A DNA stretch of 64,000 nt from Anaerolineales bacterium (GCA_025056175.1 JANWWK010000030.1:108791-172790), one strand, 5' to 3'; shown: positions 31,871 to 35,655, counted from the first letter of the stretch. Numbers and translations: made by a program. Notes: a model not told the origin generated them from the sequence alone.

Positions 31871-32533
31871 ATGGAGTCTCGTCCACGGTTCACACTTTTT
31901 GGTCTGTTGTGGTTTCCAATTGGTGTGTTGCTCAACATGTCTCCGTTGACAGCGGCAGGATTGTTGCTGCTTTCGATGACGCTATGCGGGTTCCTGTATC
32001 GCTCCGTTAATTCCGATTTTTGGGGACTGGCAGCGCCGCCGTGGACGGAGTTTAAGTTTTCTGAAAATTATCGCCGCGTCACTACTGCTGATGGTCGTTC
32101 ATGGGAAATCACCTACGAGAAAGACACATTTTCGGTCTTTACTGGTGTTGCACGCGAGGTGATTCACTGGCGCGATGAACCGGAAATTCCGTTTGCTACC
32201 CATGATATTCTGATTACCAACGGAGAATACTCCTCCGTCTCGCTCGTTACTGCGCGGGTACGCAATCACACGGTGCGTTATCAGTGGTACACCGACCGTT
32301 TACCAGAAGGGACAATTAATCTCCTGCATATCGTGCCGCTTAACGAGGAGGTTTACCATCACCTGTTGCAGATTCGCCGCTGGAATCTGGTCAGCATCAA
32401 AGGGCAGGAAATCCTGCGCATCGAAAGTTTTAACCGTCAAGGTGCGCTCCGTCTGGTGTTTCAGGATGCCGGCTGTAACACCATTCTGGTCACTTCGGTT
32501 CAAATTCTCGCGCAAGGCACGCCTGTCCCCTAG
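31871..32533 (+). CDS. Hypothetical membrane-anchored protein
   Basis: ATG 31871 is in frame with track ORF 31856. Two N-terminal hydrophobic segments are followed by a roughly 160-aa soluble domain. No family recognised. Confidence 0.45.
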   Translation: MESRPRFTLFGLLWFPIGVLLNMSPLTAAGLLLLSMTLCGFLYRSVNSDFWGLAAPPWTEFKFSENYRRVTTADGRSWEITYEKDTFSVFTGVAREVIHWRDEPEIPFATHDILITNGEYSSVSLVTARVRNHTVRYQWYTDRLPEGTINLLHIVPLNEEVYHHLLQIRRWNLVSIKGQEILRIESFNRQGALRLVFQDAGCNTILVTSVQILAQGTPVP

Positions 32534-32562
32534 AACAACGGACTGTGCGGCGAAGGTGGATA

Positions 32563-32591
32563 TTGACGAAGCACTGCAAACGGCGTAAACT
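32563..32591 (+). promoter_or_regulatory. Sigma-70-type promoter TTGACG-17-TAAACT for the riboswitch transcript
   Basis: -35 at 32563..32568, a 17-nt spacer, and -10 at 32586..32591. The predicted TSS lies a few nt before the P1 helix of the riboswitch. Confidence 0.55.
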
Positions 32592-32601
32592 TGAATTGCC
32601 C

Positions 32602-32694
32602 CGATGGGGAGTAGCGCCCGGGTTCACCCGGAAAGACAGTCGTCAAGACGGAAAGAAATTTCCCGGCTGTCTGAACGAGACCGCAAGACCATCG
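32602..32694 (+). promoter_or_regulatory. yybP-ykoY (Mn2+) riboswitch aptamer
   Basis: P1 is CGATGG (32602..32607) pairing with CCATCG (32689..32694). The conserved GGGGAGUAGC is at 32606..32615. Hairpin CCGGG-UUCA-CCCGG. Stem GACAG/CUGUC encloses AGUCGUCAA and a GGAAA-GAAA-UUUCC hairpin. The 3' conserved GCAAGACC is present. The layout mirrors the Lactococcus lactis yybP-ykoY sequence as I recall it. Confidence 0.8.
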
Positions 32695-32717
32695 CGCCCG
32701 TTCGCGTTGGTTTTTTT
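32688..32717 (+). terminator. Intrinsic terminator forming the riboswitch expression platform
   Basis: ACCATCGCG (32688..32696) pairs with CGCGTTGGT (32703..32711), with one T.T mismatch and a 6-nt loop. The last paired T is also the first T of a TTTTTTT run (32711..32717). The 5' arm overlaps the 3' strand of P1, so P1 and the terminator are mutually exclusive. Confidence 0.75.
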
Positions 32718-32742
32718 CGTTAAGTCATGAGAGGAGGCTGCG

Positions 32743-32970
32743 ATGTCCACCCCATCCCCAACCCACAAACGTTCTTCCCTGTTGCGCCGTTGGTGGAAGC
32801 CCGCTGCCGCGACCGGTGCAGGCGGCGGCGCCATCAGCCTGTGGTACGAGGAAATCATCCTGTTTGCTGAGGAAATTTTTACCCTGATTACCATTGTTCT
32901 TTTAGCAGGCGTGATTTACCTGCTCAACTTCATCCTGTTCAAAACCCAAATGCCGCACAAAGAGGAATGA
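32743..32970 (+). CDS. Small single-TM protein co-transcribed with the P-type ATPase
   Basis: 75 aa. Strong SD GAGAGGAGG lies 5 nt upstream of the ATG. Basic/Gly-rich N-terminus and a C-terminal TM helix (IFTLITIVLLAGVIYLLNFILF). Its stop is 3 nt before the ATPase ATG. Confidence 0.6.
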   Translation: MSTPSPTHKRSSLLRRWWKPAAATGAGGGAISLWYEEIILFAEEIFTLITIVLLAGVIYLLNFILFKTQMPHKEE

Positions 32971-32973
32971 ACG

Positions 32974-35655
32974 ATGCCGCCAACTTCCCCCTGGCACACT
33001 CTGTCCGCTGACGAAGCCTTCTCCGCACTTCAGAGCAGGCCGGGCGGGCTGACTGAAACAGAAGCCCAACAACGACTGACCGAGTATGGCCCCAACGAAT
33101 TGCAGGCTGCCCGCCGCATCTCACCGTGGGAAATCCTGCTTGAGCAGTTCAAAAACATCCTGATTCTCATTCTGCTGGGCGCAACAGCCATTTCGTTGTT
33201 TCTCGGCCATGGCATCGAATCCATCGTCATTGCCATCATCGTCCTGTTTGCCGTTGGACTGGGGTTTATTCAGGAATATCGTGCCGAACGTGCCATCGAG
33301 GCGCTCAAGCAGATGGCTGCGCCGACGGCCAGCGTTTTGCGCGAGGGCGAAGAAATTAAACTTCCCGCGCGCGACCTGGTGCCGGGAGATGTCGTCTTGT
33401 TGCATACCGGCGACCGGGTGCCGGCGGATGGACGCCTGCTCGAAGCCGTCAATCTCCAGGTGGAAGAGGCCGCCCTCACCGGTGAGTCGGTACCGGTCGA
33501 AAAGCATATCCACCCGCTTGAACGCGGCGACTTGCCCATCGGCGACCGCCGCAACATGGTCTATGCCGGTACGTCCATTACCTACGGACGCGGGCGGATG
33601 CTGGTGACGGCAACCGGAATGCAAACGGAGTTTGGCAAAATTGCCCAAATGTTGCAAGAAGTGGAAACTACCCGCACGCCGCTCCAGCAGAATCTGGATA
33701 AAGTCGGGACGGCGCTGGCGCGGGCGGCTTTTGTGGTGGTCGCTATCATTGTGGCGCTGGGTTTGTTGCGCGGACAGCCGTTTATCGAAATGCTCATCTT
33801 TGGCATTGCCCTGGCCGTTGCAGTCGTGCCAGAAGCCTTACCTGCGGTTGTTACCATTTCGCTGGCAATTGGCGTGCAGAAAATGGTGCGGCGGCATGCG
33901 CTCATCCGTCGTCTGCCCGCGGTAGAGACGCTGGGCAGTACTTCGGTCATCTGCTCCGACAAAACCGGCACCCTGACCCGCGATGAGATGACCGCACGAC
34001 GTTTGTATTGTGCCGGAGAGAGAATTGACATTACTGGAGCCGGGTATGTACCCGAAGGACAGTTCTTGTGTAACGGACAGGCCTGCGCCTCGCCGAGCCA
34101 GCCTGCCTTGCGGTTGCTGACTGCTGCTGCTCTGTGCGCCGATACACGCCTGATTCGGCATCCCAACGGCACCTGGGACATCAAAGGCGACCCCACCGAA
34201 GGCGCTTTGGTTGTGGCTGCTGCCAAAGCCGGACTGTGGAAAGAGACGCTCGAAGCCGAACAGCCGCGTGTGGATGAAATTCCCTTTTCTTCCGAAACCA
34301 AACGCATGACTACCCTGCACCGCACCAATGGAACACTGACCGCTTACGCTAAAGGTGCGCCGGAAGTCATCTTGCAAAGTTGTGATTTCGTGCTGCTGGA
34401 AGATGGCGTTCATCCGCTGCACACTTCAGCGAGGCAGGAAATTCTCACCCGCGCGCAAGAGATGGCGCAAGATGCTTTGCGCGTGCTGGGAGTGGCCTTC
34501 AAACCCCATGCCACACGTGAAACTGCCGAAACAGGCATGACCTTTCTGGGTTTAGTCGGCATGATAGACCCTCCGCGTGCAGAAGCCAGAGACGCAATTG
34601 CCGTGTGCGCCCAGGCCGGGATTCAACCGGTAATGATTACTGGCGACCACCCCGTGACGGCAGCGGCGGTGGCGCGCGAATTGGGCTTGTTAAACAATGG
34701 CGGTCGGGTCGTCACCGGCGCAGAGCTCGACGTGATGAGCGATACCGACCTGACACGCGACGTTGAGAACATTCGCGTTTACGCGCGCGTTTCGCCAGCC
34801 CACAAATTGCGGGTGGTGACGGCCTGGCAGACGCGCGGTCACATTGTTGCCATGACCGGCGACGGTGTGAACGATGCCCCCGCTCTGAAAAAAGCGGATA
34901 TCGGTGTGGCGATGGGTATCACCGGCACCGATGTAACAAAAGAAGCAGCCGCCATGACCCTGACCGATGACAATTTTGCCTCCATTGTCGCTGCCGTCGA
35001 AGAAGGACGCGGCGTATTTGGCAACATCAAAAAGTATCTGATGTACTTGCTCTCTTCCAACATTGGTGAAATTGGTCTGATGGCCGGTTCCGCTTTACTC
35101 GGTTTGCCGCTGCCTTTAACCGCGGTCCAAATCCTTTACGTCAACCTGGCGACCGATGGTTTGCCTGCCCTGGCGCTTTCGGTGGACCCGCCCGAAAGCG
35201 ATTTGATGAAACGCAAGCCGCGCGACCCCAAAACCGGCATCTTTACCCGTCCGGTGGTGACGCTCATGATACTGGGAGGGGTCTGGTCTACCCTGGTCAA
35301 CCTCGGATTATTCACCTGGGCGCTTGAAACCGGGCGCGGCCTGGAACATGCCATGACCATGACGTTTGTCTCGCTGGTCTTGATTCAGTTCTTCAAAGCT
35401 TATAACTTCCGCTCCGACCGGCATTCGATTTTTAACCGTCCATTCCAGAACAAGTGGTTGAATCTGGCAGTTCTCTGGGAACTGCTTTTGCTGATGTTGA
35501 TTGTATATCTGCCATTTCTTCATGAGCCGTTCAGCACTTATGCTCTTTCTGCGAGCGATTGGTTGATTGTGGCCGGGCTGGCTGTTACCGTCGTACCGGT
35601 GCTGGAACTGGCGAAGTGGATGGTGCGGAAAGGCTGGCTGGGAACGGTGGAGTAA
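32974..35655 (+). CDS. P-type (P2-like) cation-transporting ATPase, candidate Mn2+ (or Ca2+/Mn2+) exporter
   Basis: 893 aa. Cation_ATPase_N region, TGES, phosphorylation site ICSDKTGTLT, hinge MTGDGVNDAPALKKADIGVAMG, and TM4 motif VPEALPAV. The metal assignment comes only from the upstream riboswitch class. Confidence 0.85.
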   Translation: MPPTSPWHTLSADEAFSALQSRPGGLTETEAQQRLTEYGPNELQAARRISPWEILLEQFKNILILILLGATAISLFLGHGIESIVIAIIVLFAVGLGFIQEYRAERAIEALKQMAAPTASVLREGEEIKLPARDLVPGDVVLLHTGDRVPADGRLLEAVNLQVEEAALTGESVPVEKHIHPLERGDLPIGDRRNMVYAGTSITYGRGRMLVTATGMQTEFGKIAQMLQEVETTRTPLQQNLDKVGTALARAAFVVVAIIVALGLLRGQPFIEMLIFGIALAVAVVPEALPAVVTISLAIGVQKMVRRHALIRRLPAVETLGSTSVICSDKTGTLTRDEMTARRLYCAGERIDITGAGYVPEGQFLCNGQACASPSQPALRLLTAAALCADTRLIRHPNGTWDIKGDPTEGALVVAAAKAGLWKETLEAEQPRVDEIPFSSETKRMTTLHRTNGTLTAYAKGAPEVILQSCDFVLLEDGVHPLHTSARQEILTRAQEMAQDALRVLGVAFKPHATRETAETGMTFLGLVGMIDPPRAEARDAIAVCAQAGIQPVMITGDHPVTAAAVARELGLLNNGGRVVTGAELDVMSDTDLTRDVENIRVYARVSPAHKLRVVTAWQTRGHIVAMTGDGVNDAPALKKADIGVAMGITGTDVTKEAAAMTLTDDNFASIVAAVEEGRGVFGNIKKYLMYLLSSNIGEIGLMAGSALLGLPLPLTAVQILYVNLATDGLPALALSVDPPESDLMKRKPRDPKTGIFTRPVVTLMILGGVWSTLVNLGLFTWALETGRGLEHAMTMTFVSLVLIQFFKAYNFRSDRHSIFNRPFQNKWLNLAVLWELLLLMLIVYLPFLHEPFSTYALSASDWLIVAGLAVTVVPVLELAKWMVRKGWLGTVE

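What the first reader, a model, noticed from the sequence alone, without database searches (positions are those of the whole stretch)
32563..32717. Unannotated yybP-ykoY (Mn2+) riboswitch with terminator platform upstream of the P-type ATPase operon
Seen in the sequence:
- A promoter TTGACG-17-TAAACT.
- An RNA whose 5' CGATGG pairs with 3' CCATCG (P1).
- Invariant-looking blocks GGGGAGUAGC, AGUCGUCAA, CGGCUGUCUGA and GCAAGACC.
- Three hairpins that differ in sequence from, but are equivalent in position to, those in the Lactococcus lactis Mn2+ riboswitch as I remember it. One example is GGAAA-GAAA-UUUCC here versus GUGAG-GAAA-CUCAC there.
- The 3' strand of P1 is also the 5' arm of a terminator (32688..32717 with a T7 run).

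Ligand-stabilised P1 should therefore prevent termination. That is an ON switch, as established for this riboswitch class. The ORF track alone gives no hint of this element, and it changes the functional reading of the two downstream genes.
Basis: partly seen in the sequence, partly recalled or inferred. Interest (0 to 1): 0.65.

Follow-up and report, generated by a model that had tools for sequence, protein, structure and literature searches.

The report
Manganese riboswitch lacking its fourth helix
This is a real RNA switch of the well-known manganese-sensing (yybP-ykoY) kind that most likely turns on a metal-export pump, but it is a shortened three-helix form that the standard Rfam model does not detect; the same form was already described in Streptococcus, so it is a useful annotation rather than a discovery.

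Summary
The sequence features are there: promoter (32563-32591), P1 (32602-07/32689-94), the conserved L1/L3 blocks, and a terminator (32687-32717) whose 5' arm is the P1 3' strand. The predicted check failed: Rfam RF00080 gives no hit at its gathering score or at E<=10, although the same tool finds the E. coli mntP riboswitch. The cause is architecture. Only two hairpins (P2, P3.2) exist; a 9-nt linker (32673-81) replaces P4, giving a three-way junction. Twenty-one pattern-found Chloroflexota relatives share this layout, and wherever enough downstream sequence is held (14 loci) they also carry an orthologous LMCA1/SPCA1-like P-type ATPase. In loci chosen only through the downstream 75-aa protein, the element is present in 15/15 with >=3 kb upstream. 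Stems covary. The adenine matching the Mn2+ ligand A41 is invariant. A model built from these sequences finds the E. coli mntP riboswitch. A metatranscriptome contig starts at 32605. The P4-less form with a terminator and a PII-type ATPase was characterised in S. pneumoniae mgtA (PMC6649816). Verdict: genuine yybP-ykoY-type ON switch, a new member of a known subtype. Mn2+ response is inferred, not tested.

The parts
32563..32591 (+). Sigma-70-type promoter: -35 TTGACG (32563-68), 17-nt spacer, -10 TAAACT (32586-91). Predicted transcription start about 32598.
   Evidence: only such site in 32300-33100; same -35/-10 arrangement 10 nt upstream of P1 in all 21 relatives. RNA contig from a ~98%-identical strain starts at 32605, with zero RNA depth over 32300-32604.
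32602..32607 (+). P1.1 5' strand (CGAUGG), the switch helix.
   Evidence: Pairs with 32689-94. 100% paired in 22 and 25 relatives. One CG->UA double change (L086).
32608..32613 (+). L1 5' strand (GGAGUA). A at 32610 corresponds to L. lactis A9, the flipped-out A of the cross-helix A-minor contact.
   Evidence: Invariant in A1 and in the protein-anchored alignment A4. Role taken from 10.1101/553354 and PMC6649816.
32614..32616 (+). P1.2 5' strand (GCG), pairing with 32682-84 (CGC).
   Evidence: G-C and C-G invariant in all relatives. The third pair is specific to the window.
32618..32631 (+). P2 hairpin (CCGGG-UUCA-CCCGG).
   Evidence: Compensatory changes at 3 of 5 pairs in A1.
32634..32642 (+). 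P3.1 5' strand. C32641=G32665 corresponds to the A-minor receptor pair (L. lactis C37=G61).
   Evidence: Pairs with 32664-72. 4 pairs show double changes in A1. The receptor C=G is invariant.
32643..32649 (+). L3 loop (UCAAGAC). U32643 and C32644 match the L. lactis U39/C40 stack. A32645 matches A41, whose N7 binds Mn2+.
   Evidence: A32645 equivalent is invariant while the next base varies A/U/C in the protein-anchored sample. Roles taken from 10.1101/553354 and PMC6649816.
32650..32663 (+). P3.2 hairpin (GGAAA-GAAA-UUUCC).
   Evidence: 4 of 5 pairs show compensatory changes in A1.
32664..32672 (+). P3.1 3' strand (CGGCUGUCU).
32673..32681 (+). Single-stranded purine-rich linker (GAACGAGAC) in the place of helix P4. 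Together with U32672 it reads UGAAC. The clade consensus is UGAAAGAAAAC.
   Evidence: No hairpin is predicted here in the window or in any Chloroflexota-type relative. PMC6649816 describes P4 replaced by UNAAA in S. pneumoniae mgtA.
32682..32688 (+). P1.2 3' strand (CGC, 32682-84) and L1 3' strand (AAGA, 32685-88).
   Evidence: GCAAGACC is invariant in A1. One G variant (GCGAGACC, as in E. coli mntP) occurs in A4.
32689..32694 (+). P1.1 3' strand (CCAUCG). It is shared with the 5' arm of the terminator.
32687..32717 (+). Intrinsic terminator: stem 32687-96/32703-12 (one U.U mismatch), loop CCCGUU, T7 run 32711-17.
   Evidence: -11.6 kcal/mol alone; full-leader MFE -50.2 vs -37.5 with P1 enforced. 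An equivalent hairpin plus T-run is present in 21/21 relatives. The strain variant T32712C turns a G.U pair into G-C.
32743..32970 (+). First regulated gene: conserved 75-aa small membrane protein (SD AGAGGAGG at 32730-37).
   Evidence: 72 metagenomic relatives at 37-58% identity. No Pfam or NCBIfam match.
32974..35655 (+). Second regulated gene: P2A-type (PMR1/SPCA1/LMCA1-like) cation P-type ATPase, 893 aa. It starts 3 nt after the small ORF's stop codon.
   Evidence: Pfam. (TIGR01522 PMR1-type, 763.8 bits). (best PDB relatives: Listeria LMCA1 6zhf, human SPCA1). (ortholog downstream of the riboswitch in 14 relatives).

Best explanation
Window 32602-32694 is the aptamer of a yybP-ykoY-family (Mn2+) riboswitch in its P4-less, three-way-junction form. 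It is transcribed from the promoter at 32563-32591 and followed by an intrinsic terminator (32687-32717). Shown by sequence and comparison: the nascent RNA can fold into P1.1/L1/P1.2/P2 (one leg) and P3.1/L3/P3.2 (the other leg), joined by a 9-nt linker instead of P4, and the P1.1 3' strand is also the terminator's 5' arm, so the two structures exclude each other. Inferred from solved homologues: Mn2+ (with Mg2+ at the neighbouring site) bridges L1 and L3. A32610 makes the A-minor contact to C32641=G32665, and A32645 N7 contacts the metal. The two legs dock, and L1 and P1.1 are locked. RNA polymerase then reads through the T-run into the 75-aa membrane protein gene and the LMCA1/SPCA1-like P-type ATPase, which exports excess Mn2+ (possibly also Ca2+). 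At low Mn2+, P1.1 is displaced, the more stable terminator forms and transcription stops at 32711-17. It is an ON switch acting kinetically during transcription.
For: Core blocks are present and unlikely by chance. The MFE fold of the RNA up to 32694 is exactly the P4-less aptamer (-34.5 kcal/mol); the full leader prefers the terminator (-50.2 vs -37.5 kcal/mol with P1 enforced). All 21 pattern-found Chloroflexota relatives have the same promoter-aptamer-terminator layout with the P1/terminator overlap, and the 14 with enough downstream sequence held carry an orthologous ATPase (44-80% identity over the longer matches). Covariation: 95.4% of cells paired vs 22-46% when partners are slid, and 12 pairs with double changes vs 4-7. 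Independent sample: 97.3% vs 25-50%. In loci selected only through the small protein, the element is upstream on the same strand in 15/15 with >=3 kb and 24/26 with >=2 kb upstream; GGGGAGUAGC and the A41-equivalent are invariant while the neighbouring base varies. Homology to validated members: model R1, built only from P4-less sequences, finds the E. coli mntP riboswitch (21.4 bits, E=0.016 in 838 kb; locus fetched by accession) and RF00080-positive L011 (56.4 bits) and L021. RF00080 gives weak hits on the right strand and place (20-27.6 bits) to 6 sibling elements. Transcript: an RNA contig from a ~98%-identical strain spans 32605-32934, with no RNA upstream. Precedent: S. pneumoniae mgtA has the same P4-less 3WJ, terminator and PII-type ATPase, with Mn2+-dependent read-through in vitro and in vivo (PMC6649816). 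The ATPase is closest to LMCA1 and SPCA1.
Against: RF00080 gives no hit for the window even at E<=10. No binding or termination assay exists for this clade, so ligand identity rests on conserved core residues. The S. pneumoniae homologue also binds Ca2+, with higher affinity than Mn2+ (PMC6649816). P1 is almost invariant within the clade, so P1 itself has little covariation support. The window's linker (UGAAC...) departs from UNAAA. The RNA evidence consists of low-depth assembled contigs from a related strain and may include DNA. R1 E-values are rough because calibration was shortened.
Confidence: 0.85

Rival explanations
1. Same aptamer fold and ON-switch mechanism, but the physiological signal in this clade is Ca2+ (or both Ca2+ and Mn2+, or another divalent ion), matching a Ca2+-exporting LMCA1-type ATPase.
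For: The ATPase's closest solved relative is the Listeria Ca2+-ATPase LMCA1, and its best NCBIfam models are Ca2+-ATPase families. The P4-less S. pneumoniae aptamer binds Ca2+ with higher affinity than Mn2+ (PMC6649816 abstract).
Against: In S. pneumoniae only Mn2+ gave robust read-through in vitro and in vivo despite Ca2+ binding (PMC6649816). The 'soft' ligand A (32645), which specifies Mn2+ in the structures, is invariant. SPCA1/PMR1-type pumps transport Mn2+ as well as Ca2+ (established knowledge).
Confidence: 0.1
2. A conserved structured leader with a constitutive or protein-controlled attenuator, not a metal-sensing RNA. The resemblance to yybP-ykoY is a remnant or convergent.
For: No RF00080 hit. 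No experimental data for the clade.
Against: The exact metal-site residues are invariant across protein-anchored relatives while flanking bases vary. Stems covary. There is reciprocal CM detection of validated members and consistent pairing with metal-efflux-type genes. No leader peptide or known protein-binding motif is evident in the 141 nt between the predicted start and the ATG.
Confidence: 0.03
3. An alx-like dual sensor in which pH tunes Mn2+ sensing and control is translational.
For: The alx aptamer is also a three-way junction in this family (PMC12153347).
Against: alx lacks P2 and keeps P4, whereas this element keeps P2 and lacks P4. alx-like elements are reported only in Enterobacterales. 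Here the SD (32730-37) lies outside any predicted pairing and the platform is a terminator.
Confidence: 0.02

Closest known systems
Streptococcus pneumoniae mgtA Mn2+ riboswitch (yybP-ykoY family, three-way-junction form; Martin et al., NAR 2019, PMC6649816)
   Same: P4 is replaced by a short single-stranded A-rich linker. L1, L3 and the C=G A-minor receptor are conserved. An intrinsic terminator with a U-run follows directly and competes with the aptamer. The downstream gene is a PII-type (LMCA1-like) Mn2+/Ca2+ ATPase. It is an ON switch.
   Different: Different phylum (Chloroflexota, hot-spring community, versus Streptococcus). The linker is longer (9-11 nt; window GAACGAGAC after U32672, clade consensus UGAAAGAAAAC) rather than an invariant 5-nt UNAAA. 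A conserved 75-aa membrane-protein gene (and, in sibling loci, a DedA/VTT gene) lies between the riboswitch and the ATPase. Whether the two P4 losses share ancestry or are independent was not determined.
Lactococcus lactis yoaB Mn2+ riboswitch (crystallised four-way junction)
   Same: The same L1 and L3 sequences (GGGGAGUAGC; GUCGUCAA...CGGC; GCAAGACC), a P1.1 switch helix, a terminator platform, and a P-type ATPase as the regulated gene (as described in PMC6649816 and 10.1101/553354).
   Different: L. lactis has P4 stacked on P3 (4WJ). The window has no P4. The L. lactis sequence itself was not retrieved here; the comparison was made through close Bacillales analogues such as L011.
Escherichia coli mntP riboswitch (RF00080 member, 4WJ, translational)
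   Same: Shares GGGGAGUAGC, the GUCAA core of L3 and the GAGACC 3' strand. It is found by the P4-less model R1 at E=0.016.
   Different: It has P4, a longer L3 (GUCAACAUAC), and translational rather than transcriptional control. Its regulated gene is the MntP exporter rather than an ATPase.
Escherichia coli alx riboswitch (three-way junction lacking P2)
   Same: It shows that the family tolerates loss of one peripheral helix.
   Different: The helix lost is P2, not P4. It is pH-modulated, translational and restricted to Enterobacterales (PMC12153347).

Membership tests
yybP-ykoY / Manganese riboswitch (Rfam RF00080) | Covariance-model score at or above the curated gathering score (45 bits) | tested here: not met
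   No hit at gathering score on the whole window and none at E<=10 on 32480-32800. The positive control, E. coli mntP, scores 41.6 bits. Sibling P4-less elements score 20-27.6 bits or nothing: 0/17 reach 45 bits.
yybP-ykoY / Manganese riboswitch (Rfam RF00080) | Conserved L1: 5' GGGGAGUAG with the flipped-out A (L. lactis A9), and a 3' strand with invariant AGA | tested here: met
   32606-14 GGGGAGUAG and 32685-88 AAGA. Invariant in the protein-anchored alignment A4 apart from one CGAGA variant. Only sequence was tested, not conformation.
yybP-ykoY / Manganese riboswitch (Rfam RF00080) | L3 with the metal-contacting C and A (L. lactis C40, A41) directly below a C=G pair of P3.1 that receives the A-minor contact | tested here: met
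   C32641=G32665, then G-C, then U32643 C32644 A32645. The pair and the A are invariant in A1 and A4, while the next base varies.
yybP-ykoY / Manganese riboswitch (Rfam RF00080) | P1.1 switch helix whose 3' strand pairs alternatively within the expression platform | tested here: met
   32689-94 is shared between P1.1 and the terminator stem. The same overlap is seen in 21/21 relatives.
yybP-ykoY / Manganese riboswitch (Rfam RF00080) | Four-way junction: P2 stacked on P1 and P4 stacked on P3 | tested here: not met
   P2 is present and P4 is absent (9-nt linker, 32673-81). The literature accepts 3WJ members (alx lacks P2, PMC12153347; S. pneumoniae mgtA lacks P4, PMC6649816), so this feature is typical rather than obligatory.
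yybP-ykoY / Manganese riboswitch (Rfam RF00080) | Detectable homology to experimentally validated members | tested here: met
   Model R1 (P4-less sequences only) hits E. coli mntP at 5466-5572 of L001 (21.4 bits, E=0.016), L011 (56.4 bits) and L021 (21.3 bits), the last two being RF00080-positive. E-values are rough and the mntP hit is marginal.
yybP-ykoY / Manganese riboswitch (Rfam RF00080) | Location in the 5' leader of Mn2+ efflux or tolerance genes | tested here: met
   PMR1/SPCA1/LMCA1-like P-type ATPase downstream. Conserved in 14 relatives.
yybP-ykoY / Manganese riboswitch (Rfam RF00080) | Selective Mn2+ binding and Mn2+-dependent gene activation | not testable with these tools
   Requires ITC or probing and transcription or reporter assays.
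P4-less three-way-junction subtype (S. pneumoniae mgtA type, PMC6649816) | P4 replaced by a short unpaired UNAAA-type linker | tested here: inconclusive
   P4 is replaced by an unpaired linker (met). The window reads UGAAC-GAGAC (4/5 of UNAAA). The clade consensus UGAAAGAAAAC does start with UGAAA. The linker is about twice as long as in Streptococcus.
P4-less three-way-junction subtype (S. pneumoniae mgtA type, PMC6649816) | Intrinsic terminator immediately 3' of the aptamer, and a PII-type ATPase as the regulated gene | tested here: met
alx-type (P2-less, pH-tuned, translational) | Absence of P2; terminator within P4; translational platform | tested here: not met
   P2 is present with covariation, there is no P4, and the SD is not sequestered.

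The most novel reading that the evidence does not exclude
The Chloroflexota P4-less elements form a distinct, Rfam-invisible subclass whose longer purine-rich linker substitutes structurally for P4 and may retune metal selectivity or kinetics. In addition, the conserved 75-aa membrane protein co-regulated with, and translationally coupled to, the pump may be a previously unrecognised small regulatory subunit of bacterial P2A ATPases (phospholamban/sarcolipin-like).
Probability: 0.12. Interest if true: 0.55.

Novelty: new member of a known kind. Interest (0 to 1): 0.3.

Why it matters
For annotating this genome, the element changes how the 75-aa gene and the P-type ATPase should be read: they are most likely a Mn2+-induced efflux operon, not a constitutive Ca2+ pump. 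More generally, it shows a blind spot in RF00080. None of 17 P4-less Chloroflexota-type copies reached the gathering score, two other pattern-matching elements (P2-less Bacillus L061, Variovorax L012) gave no hit, and even E. coli mntP falls just below the threshold. Mn2+ riboswitches are therefore probably under-counted in Chloroflexota and other phyla, and adding 3WJ sequences to the seed alignment would fix this. The biology itself is not new, since the same architecture and gene pairing were characterised in Streptococcus in 2019.

Tried and rejected
(1) Rfam at gathering and at E<=10 found nothing for the window. I considered a tool or library gap and excluded it with the E. coli mntP control. 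(2) The simple terminator scan found none; folding shows the hairpin has one U.U mismatch that the scan does not allow. (3) A possible mini-P4, GUCU(32669-72)/AGAC(32678-81), was rejected: it would consume the P3.1 3' strand, and no relative can form an equivalent. (4) For a time I treated P4 loss as possibly undescribed: searches for P4-less or Chloroflexi links found nothing, and PMC12153347 mentions only the P2-less alx form. Reading PMC6649816 showed that the P4-less form is published. (5) My architecture-parsing heuristic mis-assigns several sequences (e.g. L057, L054, L009), so the class counts are approximate. (7) Attempted PMC ids for Price 2015 / Dambach 2015 / Barrick 2004 (ids from memory) returned no held paper, so the structural roles are cited from 10.1101/553354, PMC6649816 and PMC12153347. 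(8) M-box or another metal riboswitch: no Rfam hit of any family in the region. (9) RNA evidence was limited to assembled contigs of one metatranscriptome from a related strain, so the ratio of terminated to read-through transcript could not be measured.

Full report
OBSERVATION. TTGACG-17-TAAACT (32563-32591) is the only sigma-70-like site in 32300-33100. CGATGG (32602-07) and CCATCG (32689-94) can pair. The blocks GGGGAGTAGC, AGTCGTCAA, CGGCTGTCTGA and GCAAGACC are present. A combined pattern of three of these blocks matches once in the 64-kb window and never in 100 shuffles. The leader folds better than shuffles (z = -3.4). A terminator hairpin (32687-96/32703-12, one U.U mismatch, T7 run at 32711-17) overlaps the P1 3' strand. 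The simple terminator scan missed it because of the mismatch. The exception is the claim of 'three hairpins equivalent in position to L. lactis'. Only P2 (32618-31) and P3.2 (32650-63) exist. Where P4 should be there are 9 unpaired bases (32673-81).

THE PREDICTED TEST FAILS, AND WHY. Rfam 15 gives no family at gathering score anywhere in the window. It gives nothing at E<=10 on 32480-32800. This is not a library gap: the same tool finds RF00080 on the E. coli mntP leader (41.6 bits, E = 7e-10), itself below the family's 45-bit threshold. The printed model consensus includes a 7-bp P4 and a GUCAACAUAC L3 block, and has no P1 pairing. An element without P4 and with the shorter GUCGUCAAGAC L3 is heavily penalised.

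RELATIVES. Parsing them shows three architectures: P2+P4 four-way junctions, P2-less forms (mostly Firmicutes) and P4-less forms. The window belongs to a tight P4-less group of 21 Chloroflexota (mostly Anaerolineae) MAG loci. A few P4-less examples also occur in Clostridia, Deinococcota, Acidobacteriota and Bdellovibrionota. All 21 relatives have a promoter-like site 10 nt upstream of P1, the aptamer, and a hairpin plus T-run whose 5' arm is the P1 3' strand. The 14 loci with enough downstream sequence held carry an ortholog of the window's ATPase (44-80% identity over the longer matches), and five also have the 75-aa ORF.

STRUCTURE. RNAalifold on the 22 sequences gives P1.1, P1.2, P2, P3.1 and P3.2, and no P4. 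For that structure 95.4% of cells are standard pairs, against 22-46% when partners are slid. Twelve pairs show double changes against 4-7, and no shuffle out of 500 reaches the covariation score. P1.1 is almost invariant inside the clade (one CG->UA change). Its pairing is supported across the family by AAAGG/CCUUU in Firmicutes against CGAUGG/CCAUCG here. The MFE fold of the RNA up to 32694 is exactly this aptamer (-34.5 kcal/mol). Once the 3' arm is transcribed, the terminator form is favoured (-50.2 against -37.5 kcal/mol with P1 enforced). That is the pattern expected for a kinetically controlled ON switch.

CONTROL FOR ASCERTAINMENT. The three blocks were forced by my pattern. I therefore fetched 72 metagenomic loci using only the 75-aa protein and searched them with a covariance model (R1) built from the P4-less alignment. 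There were 31 hits, all upstream of the ORF and on its strand. The element is present in 15/15 loci with >=3 kb upstream and in 24/26 with >=2 kb; most misses lack upstream DNA. In this sample GGGGAGUAGC is invariant. The adenine matching L. lactis A41 (window 32645) is invariant, while the next base is A, U or C. One copy has GCGAGACC, as E. coli mntP does. Every copy has a linker instead of P4, with consensus UGAAAGAAAAC. Pairing is 97.3% against 25-50% when slid.

HOMOLOGY TO VALIDATED MEMBERS. R1 was built only from Chloroflexota P4-less sequences. It finds the E. coli mntP riboswitch in a locus fetched by accession (21.4 bits, E = 0.016 in 838 kb). It also finds L011 (56.4 bits) and L021 (21.3 bits), both RF00080-positive at 51.6 and 52.9 bits. 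Conversely, RF00080 gives weak hits at the right place and strand to 6 of 16 sibling P4-less elements (20-27.6 bits, E 0.0012-0.21). None reaches threshold. Those hits extend past the aptamer, which suggests the model's P4 is being fitted to the terminator.

CORE RESIDUES. The structural literature (10.1101/553354, PMC6649816, PMC12153347) describes the following. [quoted passage not shown] A9 makes an A-minor contact to C37=G61 in P3.1. L3 stacks below it (U39, C40). Mn2+ is bound by phosphates and by N7 of A41. The window equivalents are A32610, C32641=G32665, U32643/C32644 and A32645. All are conserved.

TRANSCRIPT EVIDENCE. The window sequence occurs in hot-spring metagenomes. One mat metatranscriptome holds contigs from a ~98%-identical strain. 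One contig spans 32605-32934, starting a few bases from the aptamer's 5' end and running through the terminator into the small ORF. Others cover the ATPase gene. There is none over 32300-32604. The two strain differences inside the element preserve structure: A32636G gives G.U in P3.1, and T32712C turns a G.U pair into G-C in the terminator stem. These are low-depth assembled contigs, so they show presence only.

REGULATED GENES. The 893-aa protein is a P2A ATPase (Pfam E1-E2_ATPase, Cation_ATPase_N and Cation_ATPase_C). Its best NCBIfam model is the PMR1-type Ca2+-ATPase (763.8 bits). Its closest solved structures are Listeria LMCA1 and human SPCA1, the Ca2+/Mn2+ pump. The 75-aa ORF has its own SD. 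It ends 3 nt before the ATPase ATG and has no family match.

COMPARISON WITH WHAT IS KNOWN. PMC12153347 states that all crystallised aptamers are four-way junctions and that alx lacks P2. [quoted passage not shown] That riboswitch controls a PII-type ATPase related to LMCA1, and Mn2+, not Ca2+, drives read-through in vitro and in vivo. The window element has the same architecture, the same platform and the same gene class. It differs in phylum, in a longer and less fixed linker, and in its extra co-regulated genes.

VERDICT. This is a genuine, conserved yybP-ykoY-type ON riboswitch of the published P4-less subtype, in a hot-spring Chloroflexota genome. It is a new member of a known kind. The main practical lesson is the blind spot in the Rfam model. 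Ligand identity and switching remain inferences from homology. I put 0.85 on the mechanism as stated, 0.10 on a Ca2+ or mixed signal through the same mechanism, and 0.05 on the remaining rivals.

Noticed in passing
window 32743-32970: The 75-aa ORF between the riboswitch and the ATPase is a real, conserved gene. It has 72 metagenomic relatives at 37-58% identity, with invariant G28 W34 E36 E37 A55 G56 Y59 L60 F66 K67 P71. It has no Pfam or NCBIfam family. It appears to have an amphipathic N-terminal part followed by one hydrophobic helix, and its stop codon lies 3 nt before the ATPase start. It could be a small subunit or regulator of the pump (untested idea).
   Followed up: partly
L076, L082, L104, L013, L095, L084, L053 (first ORF downstream of the aptamer): In many sibling loci the first gene after the riboswitch is a ~220-235-aa DedA/VTT-domain membrane protein (PF09335, scanned on the L076 copy only, E=1.3e-20; the others are visibly homologous by eye), followed by the small ORF and/or the ATPase. 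The window lacks this gene. None of the yybP-ykoY papers read here mentions DedA as a partner gene.
   Followed up: partly
window 32639-32695 (runs X1 record 2, X9 record 5): The same hot-spring community contains a second, more abundant organism whose riboswitch 3' half matches these 57 nt with 5 differences but has different flanks. In the metatranscriptome it sits in a 6.6-kb contig at depth ~94, against ~3.5 for the window-type transcript.
   Followed up: no
L001 5462-5558; L061; L012: In this Rfam 15 copy, RF00080 scores the experimentally validated E. coli mntP riboswitch below its own gathering score (41.6 vs 45 bits). It gives no hit at E<=10 to a P2-less Bacillus timonensis element (L061) or a Variovorax element (L012), although both match the core pattern and model R1.
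   Followed up: partly
L018 3436-3544 and 4563-4656: A MAG labelled as a Mn-oxidising Nitrospirae bacterium (MnB_6) carries two R1 hits about 1 kb apart on the same strand. The second was not found by the sequence pattern.
   Followed up: no
window 32599-32609: The bases just 5' of P1 (CCCC; ACUCC in most relatives) are complementary to the G-rich L1 strand (GGGG / GGAGU), and the full-leader MFE pairs them. This could stabilise the OFF state, but it depends on where transcription starts.
   Followed up: no
L015 and L016, ~950 and ~530 nt downstream of the aptamer: A 180-aa protein with a Lamin Tail Domain (PF00932, scanned on the L015 copy, E=2.6e-11) lies between the riboswitch and the ATPase in L015; L016 has a visibly similar 180-aa ORF downstream of its aptamer, and its held sequence ends before any ATPase. 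Its relevance to the operon is unknown.
   Followed up: no
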